Origin: a virus
Taxonomy: Duplodnaviria > Caudoviricetes
DNA: 57,699 nucleotides
Reading direction: 5' to 3' (one strand)
IMG/VR virus record: IMGVR_UViG_3300047547_000110
Span: 1-57,699 of that record
Below are positions 25,458 through 43,806 of this stretch, piece by piece (position 1 is the first letter of the stretch; each line of letters opens with the position of its first letter). The position numbers and the translations under genes were made by a program. The notes beneath the pieces were generated by a model. It was not told where the DNA came from. It did no database searches and worked only from the letters and a program-made list of their open reading frames with translations.

Positions 25458-26651
25458 TCAGTCGTCCGTCCCACGAAGCCGGTCTAGCAGTTCGCGGGCA
25501 TCGTCGTCAAGCCGAGTACGCAGCTGGTCCAGGTTGTACTGGCGCCCGCTAGCATCCACAAACTTGTCGAGTGACACGCCACCGTCACGGAACAAGCGGG
25601 CACGCGTAGGGCCCAGGACCTCGTCCTGGAACTTCGCAGGCTGGCGCTTGATCCAGTCCTGGTAGGTGACATTGCTTGGGGTCAAGCCGATGTTCTCCGC
25701 AGCCCAGGCGTCACGCCGAGCCTTGACTTGCGCCCGACGATCGGCAGCCGACATGCGGGACCACTCTTTCGCGCCTGCCTCTTCACGAGCTTCCTGGGTG
25801 AAGTCCAGCTCACGCTTGCGGCGGGTACGACCGTCACGGACTGTGGGCCGATCACCCACAATCTCCTCACCGGCCAGAATAGGGACCACCGTGGAGCGGC
25901 AGTTTGGATGCGCTGGCGGGCGAGGCCCTTTGTCAATTGGGTAGACTTCACCGTCACGAGAACGGCAGACAGCCGAGGTGCGGCCGTCCAAGGTAGCTAC
26001 CCAACGGACTCCGCTGATGATGTCAGCATTGGCCTCCCAGGTCGCTTGGCGGGCGCCAGTCGAGACGTGGTTCGCCGCTGTACGCACAACAGTCTCGGCG
26101 TCACGCTTGGTGATAGCCAGAACCCCGTCAGAGTAGTTCGCGGCCTTGGTCCCACGGATGCGGCGCACGATCTGGTCGTTGGTCTCGCCCTGCAGGATGC
26201 CCAGACGCAGCTGTTGCTCGATGCGCTGAGAGTCTGCAGCAGCCAGACGATCCCACCAGCCTTGCAACGGAATGCCGTTGATAGGCGACGCCACGACAGC
26301 CCTCAGCGTAGCAGGCGCTACGGTGTTGAAGGCAATCTCGACAGGCACAGCCGCAGCCATGGCATTAACCTCCCAAGTGGCCTCGACTTGAGACAACCCA
26401 TTGAGGTCAGGGCGCACGTCGGCATCGACCGCAGCAATAGCTGCTGCCCGCAGCCTCCGAATCTCGATCAGCATCGCGTTTAGGCGCGCTTCTTGGAACT
26501 CGGTGAGGTTCTCCTGGAGCATCGCGACAAGCTCACGATCCGAAGCCTCCAGGAGCTTGACTGCATCAGCTGCCATGCGGTTAGAGAACCGCAAGACAGC
26601 GATCTGATGGCGGACCGTGGCGTCGAGGAGCTCCTCGTTCGCGGTAGGCAT
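25458..26651 (-). CDS. Head morphogenesis protein (SPP1 gp7 / MuF family)
   Basis: ATLDGRTS..C..RDG, PPAHPNCRS. Confidence 0.9.
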   Translation of the reverse strand: MPTANEELLDATVRHQIAVLRFSNRMAADAVKLLEASDRELVAMLQENLTEFQEARLNAMLIEIRRLRAAAIAAVDADVRPDLNGLSQVEATWEVNAMAAAVPVEIAFNTVAPATLRAVVASPINGIPLQGWWDRLAAADSQRIEQQLRLGILQGETNDQIVRRIRGTKAANYSDGVLAITKRDAETVVRTAANHVSTGARQATWEANADIISGVRWVATLDGRTSAVCRSRDGEVYPIDKGPRPPAHPNCRSTVVPILAGEEIVGDRPTVRDGRTRRKRELDFTQEAREEAGAKEWSRMSAADRRAQVKARRDAWAAENIGLTPSNVTYQDWIKRQPAKFQDEVLGPTRARLFRDGGVSLDKFVDASGRQYNLDQLRTRLDDDARELLDRLRGTDD

Positions 26652-28210
26652 CAGTCAGCTCCAGGATTCAGTGCCGGGTCAACCGGTGGGGCGTTGGGAT
26701 TGGCAGGCGGGTTGTTTGGGTCAACCGGTGGGGCGTTGGGATCGGCAGGCGGGTTGTTCGGGTCGGCAGGAGGCGTCTGGGTGCCATTGCCATTGCCAAA
26801 CATGTCGCCCATCGAGCTCGTAGCTTCTTCCTTCAGCTGCTCGGCGTCTTCGTCTTCGTCGAAGTCGTCGGACAGCACTTGGCGGGACTTCATCTCCTTC
26901 AGGAAGGCCTTGCGAGACAGGTCGCGCTGAGCACGCATCTTCAGCAGAGCATCCAGCTCAGCGGAATCAGCTTCCGTCAAGTCCACATCGGTGTTAACCG
27001 TGGCCGAACCTCCAGCCTCAAGACCGAGCCAGTCGGCGGTGAACTGCATGGCCTGCTCGAGGCAGTCCTGGAAGTCCCTCACAGTCGCAGCCAGGTAGGA
27101 CGACGATTCAGCCGAGTCCAGGGCGCGCCCGGTAGCTGTCTCGTCGCCAGGACGCTGACGCATGTACTCCGCGCCGTAGGTGGCCATCTGATTCTCCAAA
27201 GACTGGAGGTCATTGGCACCTGCGGTGATGGCCGCGCCGGTGTGCTCGACGTAGTACCACTTGCCTTCGGGGGCTTCAGTGGTGAGGAAGTTGTTGGGGC
27301 CGATGTTGACCTTCTGGTCTGCCGCCACACCGGACGCAGCCAGGATGGGGAAGCGGGACACAGTGAGAACGTTGCGCTGATCGCTGGCAGACTGCCAGTG
27401 CGCAACGTTGAGGAAGGCCAGGTCAGTGAGGGGCGGCTTGCACTCCATCAGACCCGAGCGCTTGCCTGCATAGAAGGTAACCAGCGGAATGTAGTCCAGC
27501 GAGGTGGTGCCTTCGGATTCGATGTGCCACTCGTCACCTTTTTCATTGGGTGCCCAGACTTCCCACATGCCGGGTTCGAGCACGCGGACGCGGACGACCT
27601 CGACTTCCTCCCAGCCGACACGCTCGACAGTCTTCTCAAGGATGCGGATGTGCGTGAGAACCTCCTGGCCAAGCACCACCGCCGAGTAGGCAGCAATGAG
27701 GCATTCAGGCTTGACGTGCACCCAGTACGGGCGCAAGCCATCAGCACGGTCGTCAGCCAGGGTGCGGGGACGATCGTCACCCTCAGCATCAGTCTTGGCT
27801 TCAGGTGTAGGATGCTCCACGAGGACATGGGAGAAGCCTTTGGCCCAGGCTTCCCGGAACCAGGAGCGCGAGAAGGCCTGCAGGTTGTTGCCCTGCATGT
27901 CAATGTCTTCGGCGTAGTCCACAATCTGAGCGGGCACGTCTTCGCCAAGCACAACCGCTTCACGAAAGGGCTTGCCTGCAAGGGTGTCCAGCGTCTGCTC
28001 AGTCATGTTGAGCAGCGTGGCACGCGACTTGCGGGCTTCGTAGTTCTTGTTGGATTCATTGTCATACTGCGGGAGGAATTCATCCCCAGCAGCTCGCATT
28101 GCTTCCGTGCCAGCAAGCAATACGTCGATCATGCGCCAGCGCGGCGTCATGCGGAGGTAAGCCGACGACGGGGTCGCCACTGTCGGCTTCTTATTGGGTG
28201 TATCTGCCAT
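26651..28210 (-). CDS. Portal protein (DUF4055-like)
   Basis: GTEAMRAAG..FLP, IPLV, PPL.DLA.LN.AHWQ motifs. Confidence 0.85.
   Translation of the reverse strand: MADTPNKKPTVATPSSAYLRMTPRWRMIDVLLAGTEAMRAAGDEFLPQYDNESNKNYEARKSRATLLNMTEQTLDTLAGKPFREAVVLGEDVPAQIVDYAEDIDMQGNNLQAFSRSWFREAWAKGFSHVLVEHPTPEAKTDAEGDDRPRTLADDRADGLRPYWVHVKPECLIAAYSAVVLGQEVLTHIRILEKTVERVGWEEVEVVRVRVLEPGMWEVWAPNEKGDEWHIESEGTTSLDYIPLVTFYAGKRSGLMECKPPLTDLAFLNVAHWQSASDQRNVLTVSRFPILAASGVAADQKVNIGPNNFLTTEAPEGKWYYVEHTGAAITAGANDLQSLENQMATYGAEYMRQRPGDETATGRALDSAESSSYLAATVRDFQDCLEQAMQFTADWLGLEAGGSATVNTDVDLTEADSAELDALLKMRAQRDLSRKAFLKEMKSRQVLSDDFDEDEDAEQLKEEATSSMGDMFGNGNGTQTPPADPNNPPADPNAPPVDPNNPPANPNAPPVDPALNPGAD
26676..26770 (-). 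repeat. Tandem 21/42-bp repeat encoding PP(A/V)(D/N)PN(N/A) at the portal C-terminus
   Basis: GGGTCAACCGGTGGGGCGTTGGGAT..GCAGGCGGGTTGTT present twice on the + strand. Confidence 0.85.
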
Positions 28211-28286
28211 GAGCGGCTCCTCGGTCGGCGGTGTACGTAGATGACCGCGATGGTACCTCGTAAACCGCCGATTCGGGAGCCAGCAA

Positions 28287-29186
28287 TCACGCGTCGCCTG
28301 GGTGGCGTTCCCCTAAGAAGACAGGGAAACGAGGCGCATCTTTCGACCCAATTGGGAAGAACTTGTACTTGACCGTCTTGCCGTGCCACAGGCCCGGACT
28401 CGCCCAAATCAACGCCCTGGTCGCAGCGTCGAAGCCGGTGCCAATGTTGAACTCCACACCGGCGAAAGGACCATTGATTCCCCGGACCTTCAGAGCGCCC
28501 AGTGTGTTCATGCCCACCATGCCGTCTTTCGAGTGGCCGCGTTCGGTCTGCCCCAGGAGCCCGATACTGGCCTCGTTGGAGTTGTGCAGGAGCTCCTCGA
28601 ACCCGATGACCAGAGCCTCTGCATCCTCAAACCGCTTGAGTTTCATCAGGTCCTGCTTAGAGGCCGTGCCACGACCGAACTTGTAGGGTGAGGAGGCGTC
28701 ACGCAGCATGACACCCTCATAGCCTAGCTCTAGCTGGACTCGCTCATACTCATCCAGCTCGTCAAGCGATGTGATGATGGTCTGCTCAACCATCACGCTG
28801 CGACCCGAGCCGGTGGCAATGTCACGGGCCATGCCGAGACGCTCATGATACGGCTTACCGGGCTCGCGCACACAGTCGAAGACATGGAGGAACACATCGG
28901 GCTCACCGTCACGACTCATCACGCCGGACGTCGTGCCGAGGAAGGCACGCGGGTCACGCGGATCGCCCACCAAGAGCTCACCATCCAGTCCTTCCAAGAA
29001 GGTCTTGCCAAAGATGGCTTGGACCCGCCGGTTGGGAATAGGCTTGAGGTTGCGGGACACCACAACCCCGTCACGGATGATCGCACGAATGCCATCCAGC
29101 TTAGGACTGCCCAGCAGCGGCCAGCGAACGGCGGCGGAGTCGGCCACGGTTGCGGCGAGCATGGGGCGAAAGGCTCTCTCAGTCAT
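28287..29186 (-). CDS. lig: ATP-dependent DNA ligase
   Basis: KLDG.R, LDGEL, FD, EGVM, KLK nucleotidyltransferase motifs; OB-fold G.GF...RFP. Confidence 0.92.
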   Translation of the reverse strand: MTERAFRPMLAATVADSAAVRWPLLGSPKLDGIRAIIRDGVVVSRNLKPIPNRRVQAIFGKTFLEGLDGELLVGDPRDPRAFLGTTSGVMSRDGEPDVFLHVFDCVREPGKPYHERLGMARDIATGSGRSVMVEQTIITSLDELDEYERVQLELGYEGVMLRDASSPYKFGRGTASKQDLMKLKRFEDAEALVIGFEELLHNSNEASIGLLGQTERGHSKDGMVGMNTLGALKVRGINGPFAGVEFNIGTGFDAATRALIWASPGLWHGKTVKYKFFPIGSKDAPRFPVFLGERHPGDA

Positions 29187-29371
29187 GACGGATTCTCCTG
29201 TGCTGCAGCTTCCAGTAGCTCGATCAGCCGAAGCCCGTTGCCGCCATAGCCGTCTTCCAGTAAGTTGGCTATGCGACGGGCCGCTTCTTCTGCGCGGTCC
29301 GCTGCTTGAGACATGCGGTCAGCCGTGGCTTCAAGCCTATGAACTGCGCGCCACATTGATTCATCATTCAT
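29183..29371 (-). CDS. Hypothetical protein
   Basis: Overlapping start/stop with neighbours. Confidence 0.6.
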   Translation of the reverse strand: MNDESMWRAVHRLEATADRMSQAADRAEEAARRIANLLEDGYGGNGLRLIELLEAAAQENPS

Positions 29372-29921
29372 GGCTTGGCACCCCGTGCGTATGAATTGGG
29401 TTCAGGTCATCTGCCCAAGAGGGCCAGTCACGGAGAGGACGACGAACCAGGCGAGCCTTGCCGCCTTCGAGGTGGAGGTATTCGGTGATGAAGACACTAG
29501 GCTCGGCAGGCGAACCGCCCAGCAGCTCTTGCAGGACGTCCAGGGCCACGCCGACCTCGGACGAGGAGGCTTCTCCAATGTGCTCCATGCCCTGCAGACG
29601 CTCAACAACACGTATCAGCGCCCGGGCCTGCAGGTCGCGCCGGTTGGTGTGCTCCCGCACGACGTCGAGGATGGCATCGTCGAAGGGCGACGGGTCCATG
29701 TCTTTGCCGTTCTCCGCCTCGGCAACCAGGCGCTCAACGCATGCCTCGTCATCCTCAGCAGCATGCAGCTCGACGAGAGCGTACTCGAGACCACGACGGT
29801 ATGCGTCACGAGCTGGAGCCCGGCAGTAGCTGTGCTGGCTACGCCATTGGCGGAATACGATGACCAGCAGTATGGCCATTAGCACGATTGAGAGAGTGAC
29901 CCAGGGGTCGATGTTGTTCAT
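29364..29921 (-). CDS. Membrane-anchored hypothetical protein
   Basis: GGAG RBS, N-terminal TM helix. Confidence 0.65.
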   Translation of the reverse strand: MNNIDPWVTLSIVLMAILLVIVFRQWRSQHSYCRAPARDAYRRGLEYALVELHAAEDDEACVERLVAEAENGKDMDPSPFDDAILDVVREHTNRRDLQARALIRVVERLQGMEHIGEASSSEVGVALDVLQELLGGSPAEPSVFITEYLHLEGGKARLVRRPLRDWPSWADDLNPIHTHGVPSHE

Positions 29922-29930
29922 GATGTTCTC

Positions 29931-30440
29931 CTATTGGTCAACAGCTGATATGAAACGCTTAAGAGCATGGTAGGCCTTGCTATCAGTCTGCCCGTCGATT
30001 ACAGCATCCTCGACGTAGCCGTTCGTAGTCTGCACCCGCAGCCACGTCCGCTGAGAGGCGGTGATCTTACGGACAAAGTCTAGCGGCACGAGGAAGCCCT
30101 TGCGCGATTCTTTTGTTGCAGCCCCGAACTCATTAAAGTTGGTCAAGGGCTGCATGATCGAGAGGTCGTGCGTCTGCCCGTCGATGTTGAGCTTGGCGCC
30201 CGTAATGCCCTTGATGTCGTTGAATAGGTAGACGACGAGGATGGCCTCGGCTGGGCTCTTAGACGTCCACTGTGCGCCGAGTCCGGTGCAAAGCATGCCC
30301 TTGCAAGCATTACCGTGGCCGCCGATGGCTACAACCCGCGCATTGTCGAAGCCACTACGGGTGACATTGGGGCCAGTGCCTGAGGTAGTTGAGCAGCCTA
30401 TCAAGAGCAGCCCAACAGCAAAAAGAAGTAATCGAATCAT
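29931..30440 (-). CDS. Predicted lipoprotein
   Basis: Signal peptide with lipobox LIGC. Confidence 0.75.
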   Translation of the reverse strand: MIRLLLFAVGLLLIGCSTTSGTGPNVTRSGFDNARVVAIGGHGNACKGMLCTGLGAQWTSKSPAEAILVVYLFNDIKGITGAKLNIDGQTHDLSIMQPLTNFNEFGAATKESRKGFLVPLDFVRKITASQRTWLRVQTTNGYVEDAVIDGQTDSKAYHALKRFISAVDQ

Positions 30441-30477
30441 TATTAGCTCCTACCCGGTGTCGCTAAGCCGGGAGATA

Positions 30478-30519
30478 AAAGAAGGGGCGACGATCACAGT
30501 GTATCGCCGCCCCTTCTTT
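30478..30519. terminator. Terminator-like hairpin after nrdB
   Basis: AAAGAAGGGGCG...CGCCCCTTCTTT. Confidence 0.7.
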
Positions 30520-30544
30520 CAGGATGCCATCATTCCCAGCTGGG

Positions 30545-31504
30545 TCAATCGAAGGCGTCGTCCCATGTACCTTCGATGGCCCCCTTCGAGTAGTCCGTCG
30601 CCCGATTCTCGAAGAAGTTAGTATGCTCCTTCCCGAAGACGATCACATCGACCCAAGGCAGAGGGTTGGTGGCCACGCCAAAGAGAGGCCGCTCGCCAAG
30701 CTGGCCGAGACGCTGGTCAGCCACATAGCGGATATATCCCTTAACCTCCTCGGCCGTCATGCCTGAGTTGCCGCCACCGTCATACGCCAGGTCGATGAAG
30801 GCGAACTCGAGCTCCACCATCCGCTGAGCCACCTCACGAATACGCTCGGAGTGCTCTGCGGTCCGGATGTGGGGGTGTTCGGCCAGCAGCTGGTGATACA
30901 CCCTCACCATGCACTCGACGTGATGGGTCTCGTCACGGATGGACCAGCTGACGATCTGCCCCATACCCACCATCTTGCCAAAGCGGGTGAAGTTGAGCAG
31001 CATGACGAAGCTGGAGAAGAGCTGCAGCCCCTCTCCGAAGGCCGAGAAGACCGCGATGTCAAGCGCCAGACCTTCCAGCCCCTCGCGCTGCTGGAACAGG
31101 TACTCATGCTTGTCCACCATCTCGCTGTATCCCATGAAGGCGGAGTACTCCACCTCAGGGATACCCAGCTCGTCGATCAGCATCGAGTAGGCCTGGATGT
31201 GCACGCCCTCGCGGGCGGCAATCGAGGCCATCATCATGCGCAACTCGACCGGCTTGAAGGTCGGCATGTAGCGCTCGATGTACCCAGAGGCTACATCGAC
31301 GTCAGCCTGGGTGAAGAAGCGGAAGATGTGGGTCAGCAGGGACTTCTCCTCTGCTGTCAGCACAGTCTTCCAGGTCTTGATGTCCTCCGTCAGAGGCACC
31401 TCACGAGCGAGCCAGTGCATTTGCTCACTCGCTACAAAGGCCTCATAGGCCCATGGATACCAGAACGGCTTATATGCCGCCCGTTTGTCAAAGATACTCG
31501 CCAT
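30545..31504 (-). CDS. nrdB: Ribonucleotide reductase class Ia beta subunit
   Basis: Metal ligands D, E..H, E, DE..H and radical Tyr (EGVHIQAY); NFFE tail. Confidence 0.93.
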   Translation of the reverse strand: MASIFDKRAAYKPFWYPWAYEAFVASEQMHWLAREVPLTEDIKTWKTVLTAEEKSLLTHIFRFFTQADVDVASGYIERYMPTFKPVELRMMMASIAAREGVHIQAYSMLIDELGIPEVEYSAFMGYSEMVDKHEYLFQQREGLEGLALDIAVFSAFGEGLQLFSSFVMLLNFTRFGKMVGMGQIVSWSIRDETHHVECMVRVYHQLLAEHPHIRTAEHSERIREVAQRMVELEFAFIDLAYDGGGNSGMTAEEVKGYIRYVADQRLGQLGERPLFGVATNPLPWVDVIVFGKEHTNFFENRATDYSKGAIEGTWDDAFD

Positions 31505-31507
31505 AGT

Positions 31508-33322
31508 TTACCCCTCGCAGCTCGTGCAACCTTCACCAAGAGTGCATACTGCACCAGACGGGGCCGCGTCGTCCGCCTTCGTCTCTACGGGAGCAGGCTC
31601 ACGCAGGATGTCAGGCATCACACCGACCGACGTCGCCTTGACAGACGAGGAGCGGAGGTAGTAGAGGGACTTCAGGCCGAGCTCCCATGCACGGAAGTGG
31701 GTCTGATGGAGCGTCTTGGTCGAGACGTTGGCAGGCAGGAAGAGGTTGAGGCTCTGCGCCTGGCAGATGAACGGCTGGCGATCAGCAGCCAGTTCGAGCA
31801 TCACGTTCGGATCGACCTCCGAAGCAGTCTCGAAGACAGCCTTATCGTGCGCCGAAAGGAAGTCCAGGTGCTGTACAGAGCCGCGTTCGAGCACGATCGA
31901 GCGCCAGACCTCCGGGTCATCGCGGCCGAGTTCTGCAAGCCTGACCTGCAGTGCCGGATTGCGCACTTCATGAGAGCCTGCCATGGTCTTCTGCACGAAG
32001 GCATTGCTGACCAGGGGCTCCGTGCTCGGGCTGACCCCGCCGCAGATGATCGAAGAGGTGGCGTTCGGAGCGATCGCGATCAGGTGAGCATGACGCAGGC
32101 CTGTTCCCTTCATGTCCTCAGCTTCACCGCGCTCAACCGCGAGACGCATGGACGCCAGACGAGCCTCGCTGCGGATCGCATGGTAGAGCTGAGCGTTGAA
32201 CTCGGCAACGTGGGAGGAACCAAGTGCCCAGCCTTGCAGCTGGCAGTAGGTATGGAAGCCAAGGGTGCCGAGACCAATGGAGCGCTCCGACACGACCGAC
32301 TTGACAGCCCGCCACATCTCGTCAGGGGCGCGCTGGCAGAACACCTCGAGCGCATTGTCCAGCATGGTCACCAGGTCATCGATAAACTGGGTCCGATTCG
32401 GCCACCAGTCGTCGAGCTTTGCCACGTTGATGCTGGAGAGGCAGCAGACAGCGGTGCGGTCGGGAGCGGTCGGGAGGGTTATCTCAGTGCAGAGGTTCGA
32501 GTGGTGCACGCGGAGGCCCTTATCCTTGAGAGGCTGCGGCAGGCTGCGGTTGGCAGCGTCCACGAAGAAGAGGTAGGGTTCACCGAGGCGAGCACGTTGC
32601 TGGAGCATCTGAACCCACAGGCCGCGGGCTTGGACCGTCTCGCGGACGTTGCCGGAGTGAGGGTCAACCAGGTCCCATGGTTGGTCATCGCGCACAGCCT
32701 GCATGAAGGCATCACTGATGCAGACCCCGTGATGGAGGTTCTCGTTCTTGCGGTGAACGTCTCCACCCGTGGCCGAACGCATGTTGATGAACTCGACAAT
32801 CTCGGGATGGGACACATCGAGGTAGGTCGCATGAGCACCGCGACGAGTGGAGCCTTGGTGGTAGGCGATGGCCTGCGAGTCCTGGACGTGCATGAAGGAC
32901 ATGACGCCCGGCGTGTCCACGCCCTTGCTGGTGACTTCACCAACAGAGCGCACGTCACCCCAGTAGGTGCCGATGCCGCCGCCATTAGTCGAGAGGAAAG
33001 CGTTCTCCACGAAGTTCTCAGCCAAGCCGCGCACAGAGTCATCGACGTGGTTGAGGAAGCAGCTGATAGGCAGACCGCGGGTCGTGCCGCCATTCGCCAG
33101 CAGCGGAGTGGCGAACATGAACCATTGATTGGAGGAGTAGTTGTACAGTCGCTGCGCCAGGGCATCGTCGCCCCCGCTGAACGCCTTTGCCGCCCGGGCC
33201 AAGGCCTGCTGACCGGTCTCGCCGGGCAAGCAGAACTGTTTCTTGAGGGTCGTTACCGCGAAGGCACTCATGGCCTCATCGCGGGTGGGGTCGATGTCGA
33301 TCCCGGTCGCAGCATCTATCAT
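31508..33322 (-). CDS. nrdA: Ribonucleotide reductase class I alpha subunit (no ATP cone)
   Basis: ATP...N.G, ISCF, GGGIG, GEPY, SNLCTEI, APNATSS, KSLYYLRS, C-terminal CTSC. Confidence 0.93.
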   Translation of the reverse strand: MIDAATGIDIDPTRDEAMSAFAVTTLKKQFCLPGETGQQALARAAKAFSGGDDALAQRLYNYSSNQWFMFATPLLANGGTTRGLPISCFLNHVDDSVRGLAENFVENAFLSTNGGGIGTYWGDVRSVGEVTSKGVDTPGVMSFMHVQDSQAIAYHQGSTRRGAHATYLDVSHPEIVEFINMRSATGGDVHRKNENLHHGVCISDAFMQAVRDDQPWDLVDPHSGNVRETVQARGLWVQMLQQRARLGEPYLFFVDAANRSLPQPLKDKGLRVHHSNLCTEITLPTAPDRTAVCCLSSINVAKLDDWWPNRTQFIDDLVTMLDNALEVFCQRAPDEMWRAVKSVVSERSIGLGTLGFHTYCQLQGWALGSSHVAEFNAQLYHAIRSEARLASMRLAVERGEAEDMKGTGLRHAHLIAIAPNATSSIICGGVSPSTEPLVSNAFVQKTMAGSHEVRNPALQVRLAELGRDDPEVWRSIVLERGSVQHLDFLSAHDKAVFETASEVDPNVMLELAADRQPFICQAQSLNLFLPANVSTKTLHQTHFRAWELGLKSLYYLRSSSVKATSVGVMPDILREPAPVETKADDAAPSGAVCTLGEGCTSCEG

Positions 33323-33360
33323 ATTCAGGGGCTCCTGGTGGTTGAAGAGAAAGAGCTACG

Positions 33361-33391
33361 ATCTTGACACGTCTCGGGCGTAACGCAAGCC
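33361..33391 (-). promoter_or_regulatory. Putative nrdA promoter
   Basis: GG-CTTGCG-N17-CAAGAT. Confidence 0.45.
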
Positions 33392-33394
33392 GAC

Positions 33395-33433
33395 AAAAAG
33401 GAAAACCCCTGAAGCCTTGCAGCTTCAGGGGTT
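33395..33433 (-). terminator. Rho-independent terminator closing the ncRNA unit
   Basis: AACCCCTGAAG...CTTCAGGGGTT then TTCCTTTTT. Confidence 0.85.
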
Positions 33434-33435
33434 CG

Positions 33436-33665
33436 CCAGAGCCCAACCAACCGATCACAGGAGTGTGGAGATGAACGTCAACCACGAATGCAGTGTACTG
33501 CAGGAGACCGAGCAGCGCAACCGTCGTTGTCGCCAGGCCCAGGCCTAGATACGACAAAGCCCGCTCGGGGCGGGCTCTGAAGGACAGTGCGGTGTCAGCG
33601 GGCCGCCAGGCGCCACACATGCTCCCGTGCAGGACCCACGTCTGGGTTGCCCTGCAGGTTCGCAT
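33436..33665 (-). ncRNA. Putative structured RNA downstream of the tRNA
   Basis: Consecutive hairpins; no convincing minus-strand CDS. Confidence 0.45.
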
Positions 33666-33741
33666 TGGTTGCGGAGGTGGGACTCGAACCCACGACCTCC
33701 GGGTTATGAACCCAGCGGGCTGCCAACTGCCCTACTCCGCG
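33666..33741 (-). tRNA. tRNA-Met(CAT), initiator (fMet) type
   Basis: 76-nt cloverleaf, C1xA72 mismatch, GGG/CCC anticodon-stem pairs, TTCGAG T-loop, encoded CCA. Confidence 0.93.
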
Positions 33742-33746
33742 TCAAA

Positions 33747-33783
33747 TGGTGCCGGGCCATCAGGTTAGCCCGTCAGGCCCGGC
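33747..33783 (-). ncRNA. ACCA-terminated minihelix-like RNA
   Basis: GCCGGGCC/GGCCCGGC 8-bp stem plus unpaired ACCA, 5 nt before the tRNA. Confidence 0.45.
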
Positions 33784-33784
33784 G

Positions 33785-33856
33785 TGGTGAGAGGTAGACC
33801 TTGCTGCAAAGGTATGGGGCCGAGGCCCTAGCCAGTTCGCCTAGCGCTGTCTCACC
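33785..33856 (-). ncRNA. Atypical 72-nt cloverleaf RNA
   Basis: 7-bp closing stem GGTGAGA/TCTCACC+A and three internal hairpins. Confidence 0.45.
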
Positions 33857-33881
33857 GTTCAGCGTGTCGGAAGGTATGGTG

Positions 33882-33912
33882 ATGATAGCGGGCGACCTCG
33901 GCCACGGATGCC
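33882..33912 (-). promoter_or_regulatory. Putative promoter of the ncRNA unit
   Basis: GG-CATCCG-N17-TATCAT right after the terL stop. Confidence 0.55.
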
Positions 33913-33917
33913 ATCGT

Positions 33918-35384
33918 TTAGAAGGAGCCCTGCCGGACCTCCTTGCGCTTGAAGCGGACGCGATAGCGGGCCTCGTCAGCGATGTGGTCCTCCACGTCCG
34001 AATCGACGTCATCAGGGTCAGCCTCATCGCGCGGGATGGGTACAAAGGTCCTGATAAAGGCGGGACAGCGCTCTGCCACCACGAACAGACCAGGCTTCTC
34101 GCGAGGGCCGGCGATCGGCTGATCCTCCTCATCAAGGTTGAGCGCACCCTTGAGCCGCTTGCGTGTCTGCTCCCAGCCCTGCTTGCGTGACCCTGGTCCC
34201 TTGTCAGCCTTCTCCCACTTGACGCCCTTGCCAGCCATATCTTTGGCGATGCAGTTGCCGTTCTCCTCGTCGAAGATGGAGGAGTCAGCAGGACCAGGCT
34301 TCACGCGGCCCGCCAGGCCCAGGCCTATCTCGCGGAACTTGATGCCCTCAGCGATGTCGGAGGCGAGCATGCGCAGGCCCTCGTTCTCAGCGCCCTTCTT
34401 GCAGCCGTACCACTCGCCAATGCGGAACAGGTCGCCCTTGACCGTACTGATCTTGCGACCGCTCGGCAGGGTGAGCTCCGTGCCGTCAGACTCGGCCCAC
34501 CAGCCCACTGAGAAGGGCTTCGAGGAGCCCCAGTCGAAGGACCTGTCCACCGTCCAGGAGCGTGGCACTTGGAAGACTGGCACGCAGTGGACCTGCGTCT
34601 GCCAGAGGTCGTCGAACATGCCGCCCGACGTGATGTCCCAGCTGCCATCGAGCCAGGCCGCGACCTGCGCCGGGTTCGAGGCCGACGCGCGGATGCGCTG
34701 GATGTAGTCGGGGTCGGCATCCAGCAGGATGCGGTTCTCGCTGATGTGCCCGTGGATCGCCACGCGGTCGGGCTCGCCGGCCGTCTTGATGATCTTGCCC
34801 CGCATGCCAGGCAGCTGCCACCGGTTCTTGACCCAGTTGTGCCCGCGGCCGTACGGGTTGGTCGTGGCGCGCACCTTGCGAGGCATGCCCGCGACCGTTG
34901 AGCGGCAGCAGGAGAACATCTTGAGGTACATCTCGGAGGTGGCCCAGTTGGTGAGCTCCTCCCAGCCGATCCACGGGTACGCGTGGCCGTGGTAGTTGTC
35001 ATAGTCCGCCGGCTTGGACATGTAGCGCAGCAGGAGCTGCTCGCCGCTTGGGAACGTCCAGACGTAGTCGCTCTCGTTGAACTTGGCGCCTGGGAACCAC
35101 AGCTTGAACCAGGCCTTGGACTTCGCCACGACGTCGGAGAGCTGCTTATAGGTGGAGCGGAACAGGATGCCCCGCCACGCTGCGCCGTAGCCTTGCCCCA
35201 CGTGCTGGCAGAAGTCAGCCAGCAGCGCGTCAGTCTTGCCTGGGCCGCGGGTGCCCTCGTACAGGGTCTCGAATACCGGACTTGAGAGGAAGAGCACCTG
35301 CGAGCCGGCCTGCGCAGCCCACACCTTCACCTCAGGCTGCGCGACCTTCTTCTTCTTTTTCCAGTGCGGTGGGGTGTAGGCCAT
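33918..35384 (-). CDS. terL: Terminase large subunit
   Basis: Q-motif, Walker A GTRGPGKT, Walker B IGWEEL, TTNP, nuclease DWG...DHIADEARY. Confidence 0.93.
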   Translation of the reverse strand: MAYTPPHWKKKKKVAQPEVKVWAAQAGSQVLFLSSPVFETLYEGTRGPGKTDALLADFCQHVGQGYGAAWRGILFRSTYKQLSDVVAKSKAWFKLWFPGAKFNESDYVWTFPSGEQLLLRYMSKPADYDNYHGHAYPWIGWEELTNWATSEMYLKMFSCCRSTVAGMPRKVRATTNPYGRGHNWVKNRWQLPGMRGKIIKTAGEPDRVAIHGHISENRILLDADPDYIQRIRASASNPAQVAAWLDGSWDITSGGMFDDLWQTQVHCVPVFQVPRSWTVDRSFDWGSSKPFSVGWWAESDGTELTLPSGRKISTVKGDLFRIGEWYGCKKGAENEGLRMLASDIAEGIKFREIGLGLAGRVKPGPADSSIFDEENGNCIAKDMAGKGVKWEKADKGPGSRKQGWEQTRKRLKGALNLDEEDQPIAGPREKPGLFVVAERCPAFIRTFVPIPRDEADPDDVDSDVEDHIADEARYRVRFKRKEVRQGSF

Positions 35385-43128: not shown

Positions 43129-43806
43129 ATGGAACAACCCAAGATGAGTGACCTGCAGTCCAAGCTGGCTGGCGATGCACAGCCTTCTTCGGCAGCCGAA
43201 GAACTGCGCCAAGCCATGCAGGACATGCTGGAGCAAGACAACCACCTGGTCAAGGGCCTTGCAGCACAGTCCAAGAAGCAGCTGGCCCGCGAAGTCGTCC
43301 ACCTGCGCGCCATGATTAAGGTGGTCCAGAATGCCACCCGCAATGTGCGCATCGACGGCCACCGGTTCGGCCACGCGGAAGCCTTTATGCTGATGACCTA
43401 CAAAGAGGTCGACGGCGAGGGCTCTATCCTGGTGTGGAACTCACGCGATGGCGTCACGCCGTTCGTCATCAACATCGGGTCGAAAAAGTACCAGCACGAC
43501 ATTCCGCGCCAGCAGGGCCCGTTCTTCGACCTGCCGCGTGAGCATTCGGTCTCCCATGTGTGGGTGACTCGCACCGATGCCCAGGTGCTCGAGGCGTGGC
43601 GTCGCACGATGGACCGCGCTGTCGAGCTGGGCAAGATCGATCCCGAGAAAGCCGCAGGCATGCGTGACAACCTGGAAGTCGCCGAGTCCTGGCACTACCG
43701 TATCGGCCTCCGTAACCTGGAGACCGGGCGCTTCACCGACGAAGAGGTCCTCGAGGCCGCTCACGCCACCAACCCCAACCAACCGGAGCTCTTTCCCAAT
43801 GACTGA
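43129..43806 (+). CDS. Hypothetical protein
   Basis: AAGGAG RBS; HAEAF.LM.Y...WNSRDGVTPF. Confidence 0.75.
   Translation: MEQPKMSDLQSKLAGDAQPSSAAEELRQAMQDMLEQDNHLVKGLAAQSKKQLAREVVHLRAMIKVVQNATRNVRIDGHRFGHAEAFMLMTYKEVDGEGSILVWNSRDGVTPFVINIGSKKYQHDIPRQQGPFFDLPREHSVSHVWVTRTDAQVLEAWRRTMDRAVELGKIDPEKAAGMRDNLEVAESWHYRIGLRNLETGRFTDEEVLEAAHATNPNQPELFPND

What the first reader, a model, noticed from the sequence alone, without database searches (positions are those of the whole stretch)
33395..33912. Self-contained ~480-nt non-coding RNA operon between terL and nrdA
Seen on the minus strand, in order: promoter-like GG-CATCCG-N17-TATCAT, a 72-nt cloverleaf, an ACCA-ended minihelix, tRNA-fMet, ~230 nt of hairpins, an anti-RBS segment and a strong terminator. 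Only 76 nt are explained by a standard tRNA. Inference: a polycistronic precursor processed by tRNA-maturation enzymes into several small RNAs, possibly an undescribed tRNA-mimic, decoy or regulatory system.
Basis: partly seen in the sequence, partly recalled or inferred. Interest (0 to 1): 0.8.

Follow-up and report, generated by a model that had tools for sequence, protein, structure and literature searches.

The report
Conserved pseudoknot RNA beside phage tRNA
Next to its initiator tRNA gene this phage carries a small, apparently undescribed folded RNA with a tRNA-like tail; about two dozen related phages keep it, but what it does is unknown.

Summary
The sequence features exist, but the anatomy needs redrawing. 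The window is a whole PaMx74-like (Bradleyvirinae) phage record.

Between terL and nrdA, on the minus strand, lies a non-coding cassette of about 330 nt, not 480:
- a conserved -10-like element;
- a 131-nt RNA made of a double-pseudoknot core (helices P1, P2, P3) plus a 12-bp minihelix ending ACCA;
- initiator tRNA-fMet;
- a 3' RNA with a covarying hairpin, 32 invariant nt and terminator T1.

The core is present in 27 relatives. P1 is fully paired in 27 of 27, in 12 sequence variants. On the 28-row alignment (27 loci; L045 contributes two matches) 98% of cells pair, against 39-53% for slid controls.

Only its outer stem (P3) is real; its other arms are replaced by pairings with the 5' leader.

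The last ~150 nt (the "anti-RBS" and the strong terminator) belong to the neighbouring unit. In relatives a protein gene lies in between; the window has lost it.

Rfam and ARAGORN recognise only the tRNA. Some relatives keep the core with no tRNA at all, so it is an RNA gene in its own right.

Processing and function are inferred, not shown. This looks like a new phage ncRNA family of moderate to high interest.

The parts
33882..33915 (-). Promoter-like element: GATGG, then 23 nt, then TATCAT (-10-like hexamer at 33887-33882). The predicted RNA start is about 7 nt downstream, at the first base of P1 (~33877).
   Evidence: The spacing is identical in 26 copies compared without gaps. ATGG is nearly invariant. 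A2 and T6 of the hexamer are invariant, while positions 1, 3 and 4 vary (TATCAT, CATCAT, CATTAT, TAATAT, TAAACT, CAATAT). RNAalifold on 18 of these sequences finds 0 conserved pairs, which fits a DNA signal rather than RNA structure. The motif occurs once in the window. The sigma-70 scan did not call it.
33784..33877 (-). Double-pseudoknot core of the 5' RNA.
- P1: 33875-33871 with 33802-33798.
- Invariant CCGAC: 33870-33866.
- P2: 33864-33860 with 33849-33845.
- P3: loop of P2, 33856-33850, with 33792-33786.
- Conserved CUAGGC: 33844-33839.
- Variable hairpin: 33838-33808.
- Conserved GCAG: 33807-33804.
   Evidence: Counts come from 27 copies. P1 has 5 of 5 pairs in 27 of 27 copies, in 12 variants. 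P2 has 5 of 5 pairs in 26 of 27 copies, in 7 variants. P3 is perfect in 20 of 27 copies, in 8 variants; the other 7 have one mismatch. Model R1 scores 136.7 bits here and finds a single copy in the window. There is no Rfam match at E<=10.
33747..33783 (-). Acceptor-like minihelix: an 8-bp G-C-rich stem, an internal loop and a 4-bp tip (12 bp in all), then unpaired ACCA (33750-33747). A 5-nt spacer, TTTGA (33746-33742), follows.
   Evidence: The fold has z = -4.08, and 0 of 200 shuffles fold as well. In the outer stem 7 of 8 pairs show changes on both sides, and 98.3% of cells are paired. The 3' end is NCCA in 20 of the 21 rows that carry the minihelix (ACCG in L044). The same module with other stem sequences occurs in L312 and L321.
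33666..33741 (-). Initiator-type tRNA-Met (CAU) with encoded CCA.
   Evidence: ARAGORN calls it. Rfam tRNA scores 64 bits against a gathering score of 29. The drawn structure shows the C1/A72 mismatch and three G-C pairs next to the anticodon loop. A tRNA-Met at the same locus is called in 16 of the 41 related loci scanned.
33551..33665 (-). 3' RNA.
- Closing stem AUGC/GCAU: 33665-33662 with 33622-33619.
- Two-tier hairpin H1: 33658-33625.
- Invariant 32 nt: 33624-33593.
- Terminator-like hairpin T1 with tail UUUGUCGU: 33578-33551.
   Evidence: The alignment holds 7 sequences from 4 lineages. H1 keeps its shape with different sequences. The 32-mer is invariant in 6 of 7 rows and has exact matches in 6 IMG/VR contigs. 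The T1 stem has one compensatory change, in L002. A 1-nt indel between L002 and L010 inside H1 argues against the 43-aa ORF annotated in PaMx74. The scan did not call T1.
33471..33550 (.). Lineage-specific junction left where relatives carry gp06. It holds a 25-aa ORF on the + strand (33471-33548) behind AGGAG.
   Evidence: No match in relatives or in the phage collection. tblastn finds no gp06 in the window. The ATG of the ORF is absent from PaMx74-like sequences.
33441..33463 (-). The 'anti-RBS' segment CUCCUGUGAUCGGUUGGUUGGGC. It belongs to the spacer between gp06 and nrdA, not to the RNA cassette.
   Evidence: It is conserved just upstream of T2 in 5 PaMx74-like loci. Its + strand shares 15 exact nt with the leader of the gene at 43129. 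It is complementary to the nrdA leader. The duplex energy is -21.4 kcal/mol in the window, reached by 24 of 500 shuffles. In PaMx74 it is -36.8 kcal/mol, reached by 0 of 500 shuffles.
33393..33434 (-). Intrinsic terminator T2: 14-bp stem, tail UCCUUUUUGU.
   Evidence: The scan calls it. The stem sequence is wholly different in PaMx74-like loci but still pairs.

Best explanation
The region holds a dedicated small-RNA gene cassette of about 330 nt (about 33877 to 33551, minus strand). It sits between terL and nrdA in a PaMx74-like phage.

Shown:
- It encodes a 131-nt structured RNA of a family absent from Rfam. The RNA has a three-helix double-pseudoknot core (P1, P2, P3) with invariant joining nucleotides (CCGAC, UAGG, GCAG). 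A 12-bp hairpin ending in single-stranded ACCA follows the core.
- Five nt further on lies an initiator tRNA-fMet.
- After the tRNA comes a 3' RNA with a covarying hairpin, 32 invariant nt and a terminator-like hairpin.

Inferred:
- Transcription starts at a conserved -10-like element, so that P1 is the 5' end of the RNA.
- RNase P cuts at the 5' side of the tRNA, and probably also at G1 of the minihelix.
- The exonucleases that trim tRNA 3' ends stop at the encoded CCA ends.
- The result would be several stable RNAs: core with or without the minihelix, the tRNA, and the 3' RNA.

My best guess at function is that the 5' RNA acts in trans as a stable tRNA-like RNA. I think it binds a host or phage protein through its invariant core, with the acceptor-like end serving maturation and protection.
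For: 1. Conservation. blastn shows 33950-33542 conserved in PaMx74 (79% identity) and other Bradleyvirinae.

2. Structure on the MAFFT alignment. 94.3% of cells pair, against 40-54% for slid controls. 16 of 27 pairs show changes on both sides, against 3-7 for slid controls. The covariation score is 0.375, against 0.05-0.16. 0 of 500 shuffles reach any of these values.

3. Structure on the 28-row alignment fitted to the model. 98.0% of cells pair, against 39-53%. 19 of 27 pairs show changes on both sides, against 4-8. P3 was not part of the model, yet 94.6% of its cells pair and 4 of its 7 pairs change on both sides.

4. Per-copy parse. P1 is fully paired in 27 of 27 copies, P2 in 26 of 27, and P3 is perfect in 20 of 27.

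5. Strand. My tally of the pair table gives 14 G.U cells on the terL strand. It gives 5 A.C cells, which would be G.U on the other strand.

6. An RNA gene of its own. The core occurs with no tRNA in L045, L022, L023, L326 and L012.

7. Features that suit RNase P. G1-C72 is kept in 19 of 24 rows. The helix is 11-13 bp long. The 3' end is NCCA.

8. Promoter-like conservation without RNA pairing.

9. RNA-library contigs bridge the parts. X16 record 9 covers 33582-33861. X18 record 20 covers 33594-33797. X15 record 1 covers 33667-33857 with 1 mismatch.

10. Not coding. The variable insert is 31-68 nt long and its lengths do not keep to multiples of three.
Against: - No RNA ends were mapped. The contigs cannot show starts, ends or strand. 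DNA can be present in RNA libraries.
- A relative's contig (X15 record 3, 33794-33998) bridges the end of terL and the core. Read-through from terL instead of a separate promoter is therefore possible.
- The sigma-70 scan found no promoter and did not call T1.
- Single-sequence folds are only modestly better than shuffles: z = -2.22 for the 5' part and -2.15 for the 3' part. The MFE fold is not the covariation-supported one.
- The 3' RNA rests on only 4 lineages.
- The core occurs without any acceptor-like end in L012/L013, and without the minihelix in L002/L010. The tRNA-like tail is therefore not essential to the core.
- 6 of 20 close terL relatives (78% identity or more) lack the element: L005, L006, L014, L018, L020 and L021. 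It is dispensable.
- Nothing tested here bears on a trans-acting role.
Confidence: 0.55

Rival explanations
1. The core is a cis-acting 5' element, not a trans-acting RNA. One version is a promoter-proximal antiterminator in the manner of HK022 put RNA. It would let the polymerase that made it read through T1 and T2 into nrdAB, DNA ligase, portal and the structural genes. The other version is a 5' structure that stabilises the downstream tRNA, tmRNA or other RNAs, or guides their processing.
For: - The core is the first element after the promoter-like motif in all 27 copies.
- Whatever follows it varies: tRNA, tRNA plus tmRNA, tRNA-like RNA, or nothing. A T1-type terminator follows downstream in the copies read through to it.
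- The minimal form, L012, is core plus terminator.
- Two terminators lie between terL and nrdAB, ligase and portal, all on the same strand. Some means of read-through, or internal promoters, is needed.
Against: - No test of termination was possible.
- put RNAs (recalled) are two plain stem-loops without a pseudoknot.
- A conserved TTGCG..CAAGATCG stretch between T2 and nrdA could be nrdA's own promoter.
- In most copies T1 is more than 200 nt from the core.
Confidence: 0.2
2. The core is a catalytic or ligand-sensing RNA. One version is a self-cleaving ribozyme that frees the RNA cassette from terL read-through transcripts. The other is a riboswitch-like aptamer.
For: - It is a compact pseudoknotted fold with a few invariant unpaired nucleotides (CCGAC, UAGG, GCAG) and a length-variable peripheral hairpin. 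That is the usual look of ribozyme and aptamer cores.
- A relative's RNA-library contig spans the end of terL into the core.
Against: - No Rfam ribozyme or riboswitch family matches at E<=10.
- No expression platform follows the core. The hairpin after it has no U tract, and the next gene is a tRNA.
- The region upstream of P1 behaves as a DNA signal: 0 conserved pairs.
Confidence: 0.08
3. The flanks are decaying relics of former tRNA genes, or a DNA-level signal such as a packaging site or a protein-binding site next to terL. No functional RNA is involved.
For: - Relatives carry additional tRNAs at this locus: tRNA-Ile in L044 and L019.
- The element lies directly after terL.
Against: - Compensatory changes keep three helices and the minihelix across 27 copies.
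- G.U pairs favour one strand.
- ARAGORN finds nothing in the cloverleaf on the minus strand even at 60% thresholds.
- The element exists in genomes without any tRNA.
Confidence: 0.04

Closest known systems
Small stable RNAs of the phage T4 tRNA cluster (species 1 and 2, rnaC/rnaD). Recalled from memory; not compared here.
   Same: They are phage RNAs of unknown function, encoded next to tRNA genes. They are thought to be cut out of a common precursor by the host's tRNA-processing enzymes.
   Different: No sequence or structure comparison could be made. The family described here has a double-pseudoknot core and an encoded NCCA minihelix.
Viral tRNA-like structures of the tymovirus type (Rfam RF00233)
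   Same: A pseudoknotted RNA that ends in a single-stranded ACCA on an acceptor-like helix.
   Different: In those structures the pseudoknot builds the acceptor stem itself, T- and D-loop mimics are present, and the element ends an RNA genome. Here the pseudoknot lies upstream of a plain hairpin. RF00233 matched only the true tRNA, at 17.3 bits against a gathering score of 40.
Bacterial and phage Y-RNA-like RNAs (YrlA, RF02553)
   Same: A non-coding RNA with a tRNA-like module, often phage-borne.
   Different: YrlA carries a real T-arm and a stem formed by its two ends that binds the Ro protein (recalled). The match here is 17.6 bits against 69 and lies on the tRNA. The 5' RNA has no GTTCRA T-loop.
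tmRNA, including the permuted form (RF04321)
   Same: It combines a tRNA-like end with pseudoknots. Relatives L019 and L044 (phage QDWS359) carry a true permuted tmRNA downstream of the same core (112.2 and 108.7 bits, gathering 47).
   Different: The window has none: ARAGORN and Rfam are negative. The core has no tag reading frame and no T-arm.
HK022 put antiterminator RNA (recalled)
   Same: A structured RNA just downstream of a promoter, upstream of terminators, conserved by covariation.
   Different: put is two stem-loops and acts on early operons.
Large phage-associated RNAs found near tRNAs (GOLLD, ROOL; in Rfam by my recollection)
   Same: They are phage-borne, lie next to tRNA genes, and have no known function.
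   Different: They are several times larger. No Rfam family other than tRNA reached its threshold.

Membership tests
tRNA (for the 72-nt 'cloverleaf', 33856-33785) | Recognised by tRNA finders or covariance models | tested here: not met
   ARAGORN at default, 80% and 60% thresholds gives no call on the minus strand there. Rfam tRNA matches only 33741-33669.
tRNA (for the 72-nt 'cloverleaf', 33856-33785) | Four-arm cloverleaf kept by covariation, with a 7-nt anticodon loop and a T-loop | tested here: not met
   Only the outer stem (P3) covaries. The strands of the supposed D and T arms pair with the leader instead: P2 in 26 of 27 copies and P1 in 27 of 27. The central hairpin lies in a variable insert of 31-68 nt. 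There is no GTTCRA.
Bacterial initiator tRNA-fMet (33741-33666) | CAU anticodon, C1/A72 mismatch, three G-C pairs closing the anticodon stem | tested here: met
   ARAGORN drawing and Rfam alignment.
tmRNA (standard or permuted) | Match to the tmRNA models, or an ARAGORN tmRNA call with a tag peptide | tested here: not met
   None in the window. It is met in relatives L019 and L044.
YrlA / Y-RNA-like | Rfam RF02553 gathering score (69 bits) | tested here: not met
   17.6 bits, overlapping the tRNA.
Tymovirus-type tRNA-like structure | Rfam RF00233 gathering score (40 bits) | tested here: not met
   17.3 bits, on the tRNA itself.
RNase P substrate (minihelix type) | Coaxial helix of about 12 bp, G+1 paired with C, 3' RCCA | tested here: met
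   These sequence features are present. Cleavage itself cannot be tested with these tools.
Intrinsic terminator | G+C-rich hairpin followed by a T run | tested here: met
   T2 (33434-33403) is called by the scan. T1 (33578-33551) has the tail TTTGTCGT and was not called by that scan. It is conserved, with one compensatory change, so it is inconclusive as a terminator.
Sigma-70 promoter | -35 and -10 hexamers with a 16-18 nt spacer | tested here: inconclusive
   The scan gave 0 calls. A -10-like hexamer with invariant A2 and T6 is conserved (18-sequence alignment). No TTGACA-like -35 is present; a conserved ATGG lies 23 nt upstream instead.

The most novel reading that the evidence does not exclude
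The 5' RNA is a new class of phage tRNA mimic. It would have a double-pseudoknot body carrying an acceptor-like NCCA minihelix and would be matured by RNase P and the CCA-end enzymes like a tRNA. It would then act as a decoy or sponge for host proteins that recognise tRNA acceptor ends. Those could include defence toxins that modify or cut tRNA 3' ends. The effect would be to shield the co-encoded initiator tRNA and the host tRNA pool during infection.
Probability: 0.15. Interest if true: 0.85.

Novelty: new variant of a known kind. Interest (0 to 1): 0.62.

Why it matters
Phage genomes of this subfamily are annotated as having one tRNA or none at this locus. The AXL1 genome paper says no tRNA genes were found (PMC9206674, passages read).

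What is really there is a conserved, modular non-coding RNA locus of 300-650 nt. Its first module is a pseudoknotted RNA with no Rfam family. Downstream modules vary: initiator tRNA, tRNA-Ile, permuted tmRNA, a tRNA-like RNA, and a further ~330-nt conserved non-coding stretch in Bosaviruses.

The family has cultured members with tractable hosts: PaMx74 on Pseudomonas aeruginosa and Donnerlittchen on Janthinobacterium lividum. The function of a covariation-backed phage RNA can therefore be tested directly. The candidate roles all bear on open questions:
- tRNA mimicry;
- punctuation of precursors by RNase P;
- RNA-based antitermination.

Tried and rejected
- Rfam at E<=10 on 33250-34000 and at gathering scores on the whole window gave only the tRNA. 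The other ten rows are far below their thresholds.

- ARAGORN with relaxed thresholds gave only low-quality calls on the opposite strand (Arg, Ala, Pro with introns). I reject these.

Model R1 confirmed 1 of 119 metagenome loci (L113). Among the 120 genome loci it gave only one borderline hit, L206 (19.2 bits, E 0.008), which I do not count.

- blastn with the L012 form found nothing in the phage collection.

- I searched the phage's own genome for a target of the invariant 32-mer. The best non-self duplex was -54.5 kcal/mol, within the range of shuffled queries (-46 to -57). No target was found.

- The 25-aa ORF on the + strand (33471-33548) has a good AGGAG, but neither its ATG nor its body is conserved. 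I reject it as a gene, with low certainty.

- The 43-aa ORF annotated in PaMx74 over the 3' RNA is rejected. The nucleotide sequence is invariant without synonymous change, and L002 and L010 differ by a 1-nt indel.

- RNA structure in the 57 nt upstream of P1: RNAalifold finds none.

- gp06 is absent from the window and has no Pfam family.

- Laid RNA-library contigs: in X16 and X18 nothing lay on terL or nrdA within 33300-34300, while the RNA cassette was covered.

- The catalogue of about 10,000 candidate viral structured RNAs (PMC10690425, passages read) may contain this motif. Its supplementary tables are closed, so I cannot say.

- Literature searches found no description of this RNA. That covers only these word searches.
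Full report
**What the window is.** The window is a complete virus record of 57,699 bases. Its nearest named relative is Pseudomonas phage PaMx74. More distant relatives are other Bradleyvirinae that infect Xanthomonas, Stenotrophomonas, Janthinobacterium and Variovorax.

The minus strand runs in this order:
- primase
- terS
- an unknown gene
- terL (35384-33918)
- the stretch in question
- nrdA (33322-31508) and nrdB
- two unknown genes
- DNA ligase
- portal and head genes

**Checking the observation.** All the listed motifs can be read at the stated places. The tRNA is real and of the initiator type. The last hairpin is the only terminator-like site the scan called between 33000 and 34300. 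The scan called no sigma-70 promoter there. Rfam (4227 families) recognises nothing else, even at E<=10. Whether the flanks mean anything therefore had to be decided from relatives.

**Relatives.**
- A terL-based search of IMG/VR gave 37 loci.
- GenBank phages added 15 loci.
- blastn of the intergenic region against these shows 33950-33542 conserved in the PaMx74 group, Donnerlittchen, DoCa5, Xoo-sp2 and VBv52.
- 33409-33358 is conserved in the PaMx74 group.
- Nothing is conserved between 33541 and 33410.
- Querying 33560-33395 against the phage collection found nothing.

**The 5' RNA.** RNAalifold on ten sequences did not return the cloverleaf. Instead it paired the leader ACCUU with AAGGU (P1) and CGCUG with CAGCG (P2). 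That leaves GGUGAGA in the loop of P2. GGUGAGA pairs with UCUCACC downstream of P1 (P3), which makes a pseudoknot that crosses both other helices.

On a MAFFT alignment of 21 distinct copies the structure pairs in 94.3% of cells, against 40-54% when the partners are slid. 16 of 27 pairs change on both sides, against 3-7 for slid partners. No shuffle reaches these values.

A covariance model (R1) then found further copies:
- L113, L045, L023, L022, L012/L013
- L326

On the 28-row alignment fitted to the model, 98.0% of cells pair and 19 of 27 pairs change on both sides. P3 was not in the model, so it is an independent check. 94.6% of its cells pair.

A per-copy parse of 27 copies gives:

| Helix | Fully paired | Sequence variants |
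|---|---|---|
| P1 | 27 of 27 | 12 |
| P2 | 26 of 27 | 7 |
| P3 | 20 of 27 perfect | 8 |

The remaining 7 copies have a single P3 mismatch. It is A.C in six and U.U in one, by my reading of the printed strands.

The joining nucleotides are nearly invariant: YCGAM, YUAGRY and GCAG/GCAU (one lineage, L010, has GUCG instead). The hairpin between UAGG and GCAG varies from 31 to 68 nt. G.U pairs favour the terL strand: my tally of the pair table gives 14 such cells against 5 A.C cells. This is a folded RNA, not DNA and not coding.

**The minihelix.** Directly after P3 (two nt, AC) comes an 8-bp stem with an internal loop and a 4-bp tip, then unpaired ACCA.
- Seven of the eight outer pairs change on both sides among relatives.
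- In DoCa10 and FMYAK-P1 it is replaced by an unrelated perfect 13-bp hairpin that again ends in ACCA.
- The first pair is G-C in 19 of 24 rows.
- The end is NCCA in 20 of the 21 rows that have the module (ACCG in L044).
- The module is absent from L002 and L010, where the tRNA follows P3. It is also absent from L012.
- The module also occurs elsewhere with new stems. It lies between tRNA-Pro and tRNA-Asn in an unrelated 70-kb contig (L312) and before an ORF in L321.

It therefore behaves as a portable acceptor-like module with the sequence features of an RNase P minihelix substrate. Cleavage was not tested.

**Start of the RNA.** The 57 nt upstream of the core align without gaps in 26 copies.
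- ATGG is nearly invariant.
- 23 nt further on lies a hexamer with invariant A2 and T6 and free positions 1, 3 and 4. That is the pattern of a -10 element.
- RNAalifold on 18 of these sequences finds no conserved pair.
- P1 begins 6-7 nt after the hexamer.
- L006 keeps this motif, the tRNA and T1, but carries a different 145-nt insert that again starts with a closing stem at the same distance.

I infer a promoter of unusual -35 type. However, a relative's RNA-library contig bridges the end of terL and the core, so read-through is not excluded.

**The 3' RNA.** Right after the tRNA's CCA, AUGC pairs with GCAU around a two-tier hairpin. That hairpin keeps its shape with different sequences in four lineages.

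Then come 32 nt that are identical in 6 of the 7 aligned sequences, whose neighbouring hairpin has diverged freely. DoCa5 keeps 29 contiguous nt of the 32. Then comes a hairpin with tail UUUGUCGU (T1).

A 1-nt indel between L002 and L010 and the lack of synonymous change argue against the 43-aa ORF annotated in PaMx74. I found no target for the invariant stretch in the phage genome. This part rests on few lineages.

**The last 150 nt.** Alignment with PaMx74-like loci shows that 33500-33323 corresponds to their spacer between gp06 and nrd. That spacer holds:
- the CUCCUGU..GGUUGGU.GGGC segment;
- terminator T2, with fully different but pairing stems;
- a conserved TTGCG..CAAGATCG stretch.

Relatives carry gp06 (139 aa, phrog_23866, unknown function) between T1 and this spacer. 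The window has lost it.

The segment is complementary to the nrdA leader:

| Phage | Duplex energy | Shuffles at least as good |
|---|---|---|
| PaMx74 | -36.8 kcal/mol | 0 of 500 |
| Window | -21.4 kcal/mol | 24 of 500 |

A local role in nrdA translation is the simpler reading. The 15-nt identity of its + strand with the leader of gene 43129 is real.

**Architectures in relatives.**

| Architecture | Loci |
|---|---|
| Core + T1 only | L012/L013 |
| Core + extra hairpins + minihelix + terminator, no tRNA | L045, L022, L023; probably L326 |
| Core + tRNA-fMet | L002, L010 |
| Core + minihelix + tRNA-fMet | window, PaMx74, L004, L008, L015, L016, Xoo-sp2, VBv52, L113, DoCa5, Elanor |
| The same + tRNA-Ile + permuted tmRNA | L044 |
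| Core + minihelix + an odd tRNA + tRNA-Ile + permuted tmRNA | L019 |
| Core + minihelix + ~430 nt more non-coding sequence with a T-loop-bearing tRNA-like part | Bosaviruses |

For the Bosaviruses, Rfam was run on 2 of 7 loci (L057 and L060) and found nothing.

Among the 20 IMG/VR loci whose terL is 78% identical or more, 14 have the core and 6 lack it. None of the 16 more distant loci searched has it.

**Expression.** Short contigs from metatranscriptome libraries of three studies lie on the cassette and bridge its parts:
- 33582-33861, with 6 differences;
- 33594-33797, with 3 differences;
- 33667-33857, with 1 difference.

Contigs cannot show ends or strand, and DNA may be present in such libraries. 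This is weak support for a common precursor.

**Interpretation.** What is shown is a conserved, modular non-coding RNA locus. Its constant first module is a pseudoknotted RNA absent from Rfam. The window carries that module with an acceptor-like tail, an initiator tRNA and a conserved 3' RNA.

What is inferred is a promoter-to-T1 transcript cut by RNase P and trimmed to the encoded CCA ends. That would yield stable small RNAs. A trans-acting, protein-binding role is my best guess for the 5' RNA.

The core exists without any tRNA-like end, and it always sits first after the promoter-like motif. Both facts keep a cis-acting role alive: antitermination through T1 and T2, or 5' stabilisation. A ribozyme or aptamer core cannot be excluded.

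The genome papers I read in passages describe none of this.

Noticed in passing
L044 2017-2311 (Stenotrophomonas phage QDWS359) and L019 5145-5393: Both relatives carry a true permuted (two-piece) tmRNA downstream of the same core and tRNAs. RF04321 scores 108.7 and 112.2 bits against a gathering score of 47. ARAGORN reads the tag ANDSVYAQAIAA in L044. In the QDWS359 record the region is annotated as a minus-strand hypothetical protein.
   Followed up: partly
L057 1231-1880 (Xp12); likewise L058-L063 and L043: Bosaviruses have about 640-680 nt (about 880 nt in Elanor, L043) without an annotated gene after terL. The region holds the core, the minihelix, a tRNA-like stretch with a GGTTCGA T-loop, and about 330 nt of conserved GC-rich sequence ending in a terminator. 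ARAGORN did not call the tRNA-like stretch in Elanor. Rfam found no family in L057 or L060 at E<=0.1. The 3' end of the region resembles the window's invariant 3' stretch (GGAGCA..TGT..GCCTGGCGG).
   Followed up: partly
L006 4186-4620: This close relative (terL 97% identical) keeps the promoter-like motif, tRNA-fMet and T1. It has a different ~145-nt 5' insert whose topology looks similar. ATCCTG/CAGGAT forms a closing stem. GCTGACG inside that stem is complementary to CGTCAGC outside it.
   Followed up: no
L312 3304-3436: In an unrelated 70-kb viral contig the same minihelix (inner GGAGGTCCACCCGAG, new stem, ACCA end) sits between tRNA-Pro and tRNA-Asn. It follows about 90 nt of other hairpins. 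R1 scores only 30.5 bits there.
   Followed up: partly
window 33441-33463 with 33318-33362; L001 2436-2472 with 2548-2592: The segment upstream of terminator T2 is complementary to the nrdA leader and Shine-Dalgarno region. The match is strong in PaMx74 (-36.8 kcal/mol, 0 of 500 shuffles as good). It could mask nrdA translation on read-through transcripts.
   Followed up: partly
window 33350-33393: A conserved GTCGGCTTGCG ... CAAGATCG stretch lies between T2 and nrdA in the window and 5 PaMx74-like loci. It may be a promoter for nrdA.
   Followed up: no
window 26651-33322: Nucleotide-metabolism genes (nrdA, nrdB, DNA ligase) and two unknown genes lie between terL and the portal gene, on the same strand.
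   Followed up: partly
L007 3630-4049; L057 1878-2282: A protein of about 135-139 aa with unknown function (phrog_23866, no Pfam family) follows the RNA locus in PaMx74, Xoo-sp2 and Bosaviruses. The window has lost it.
   Followed up: partly
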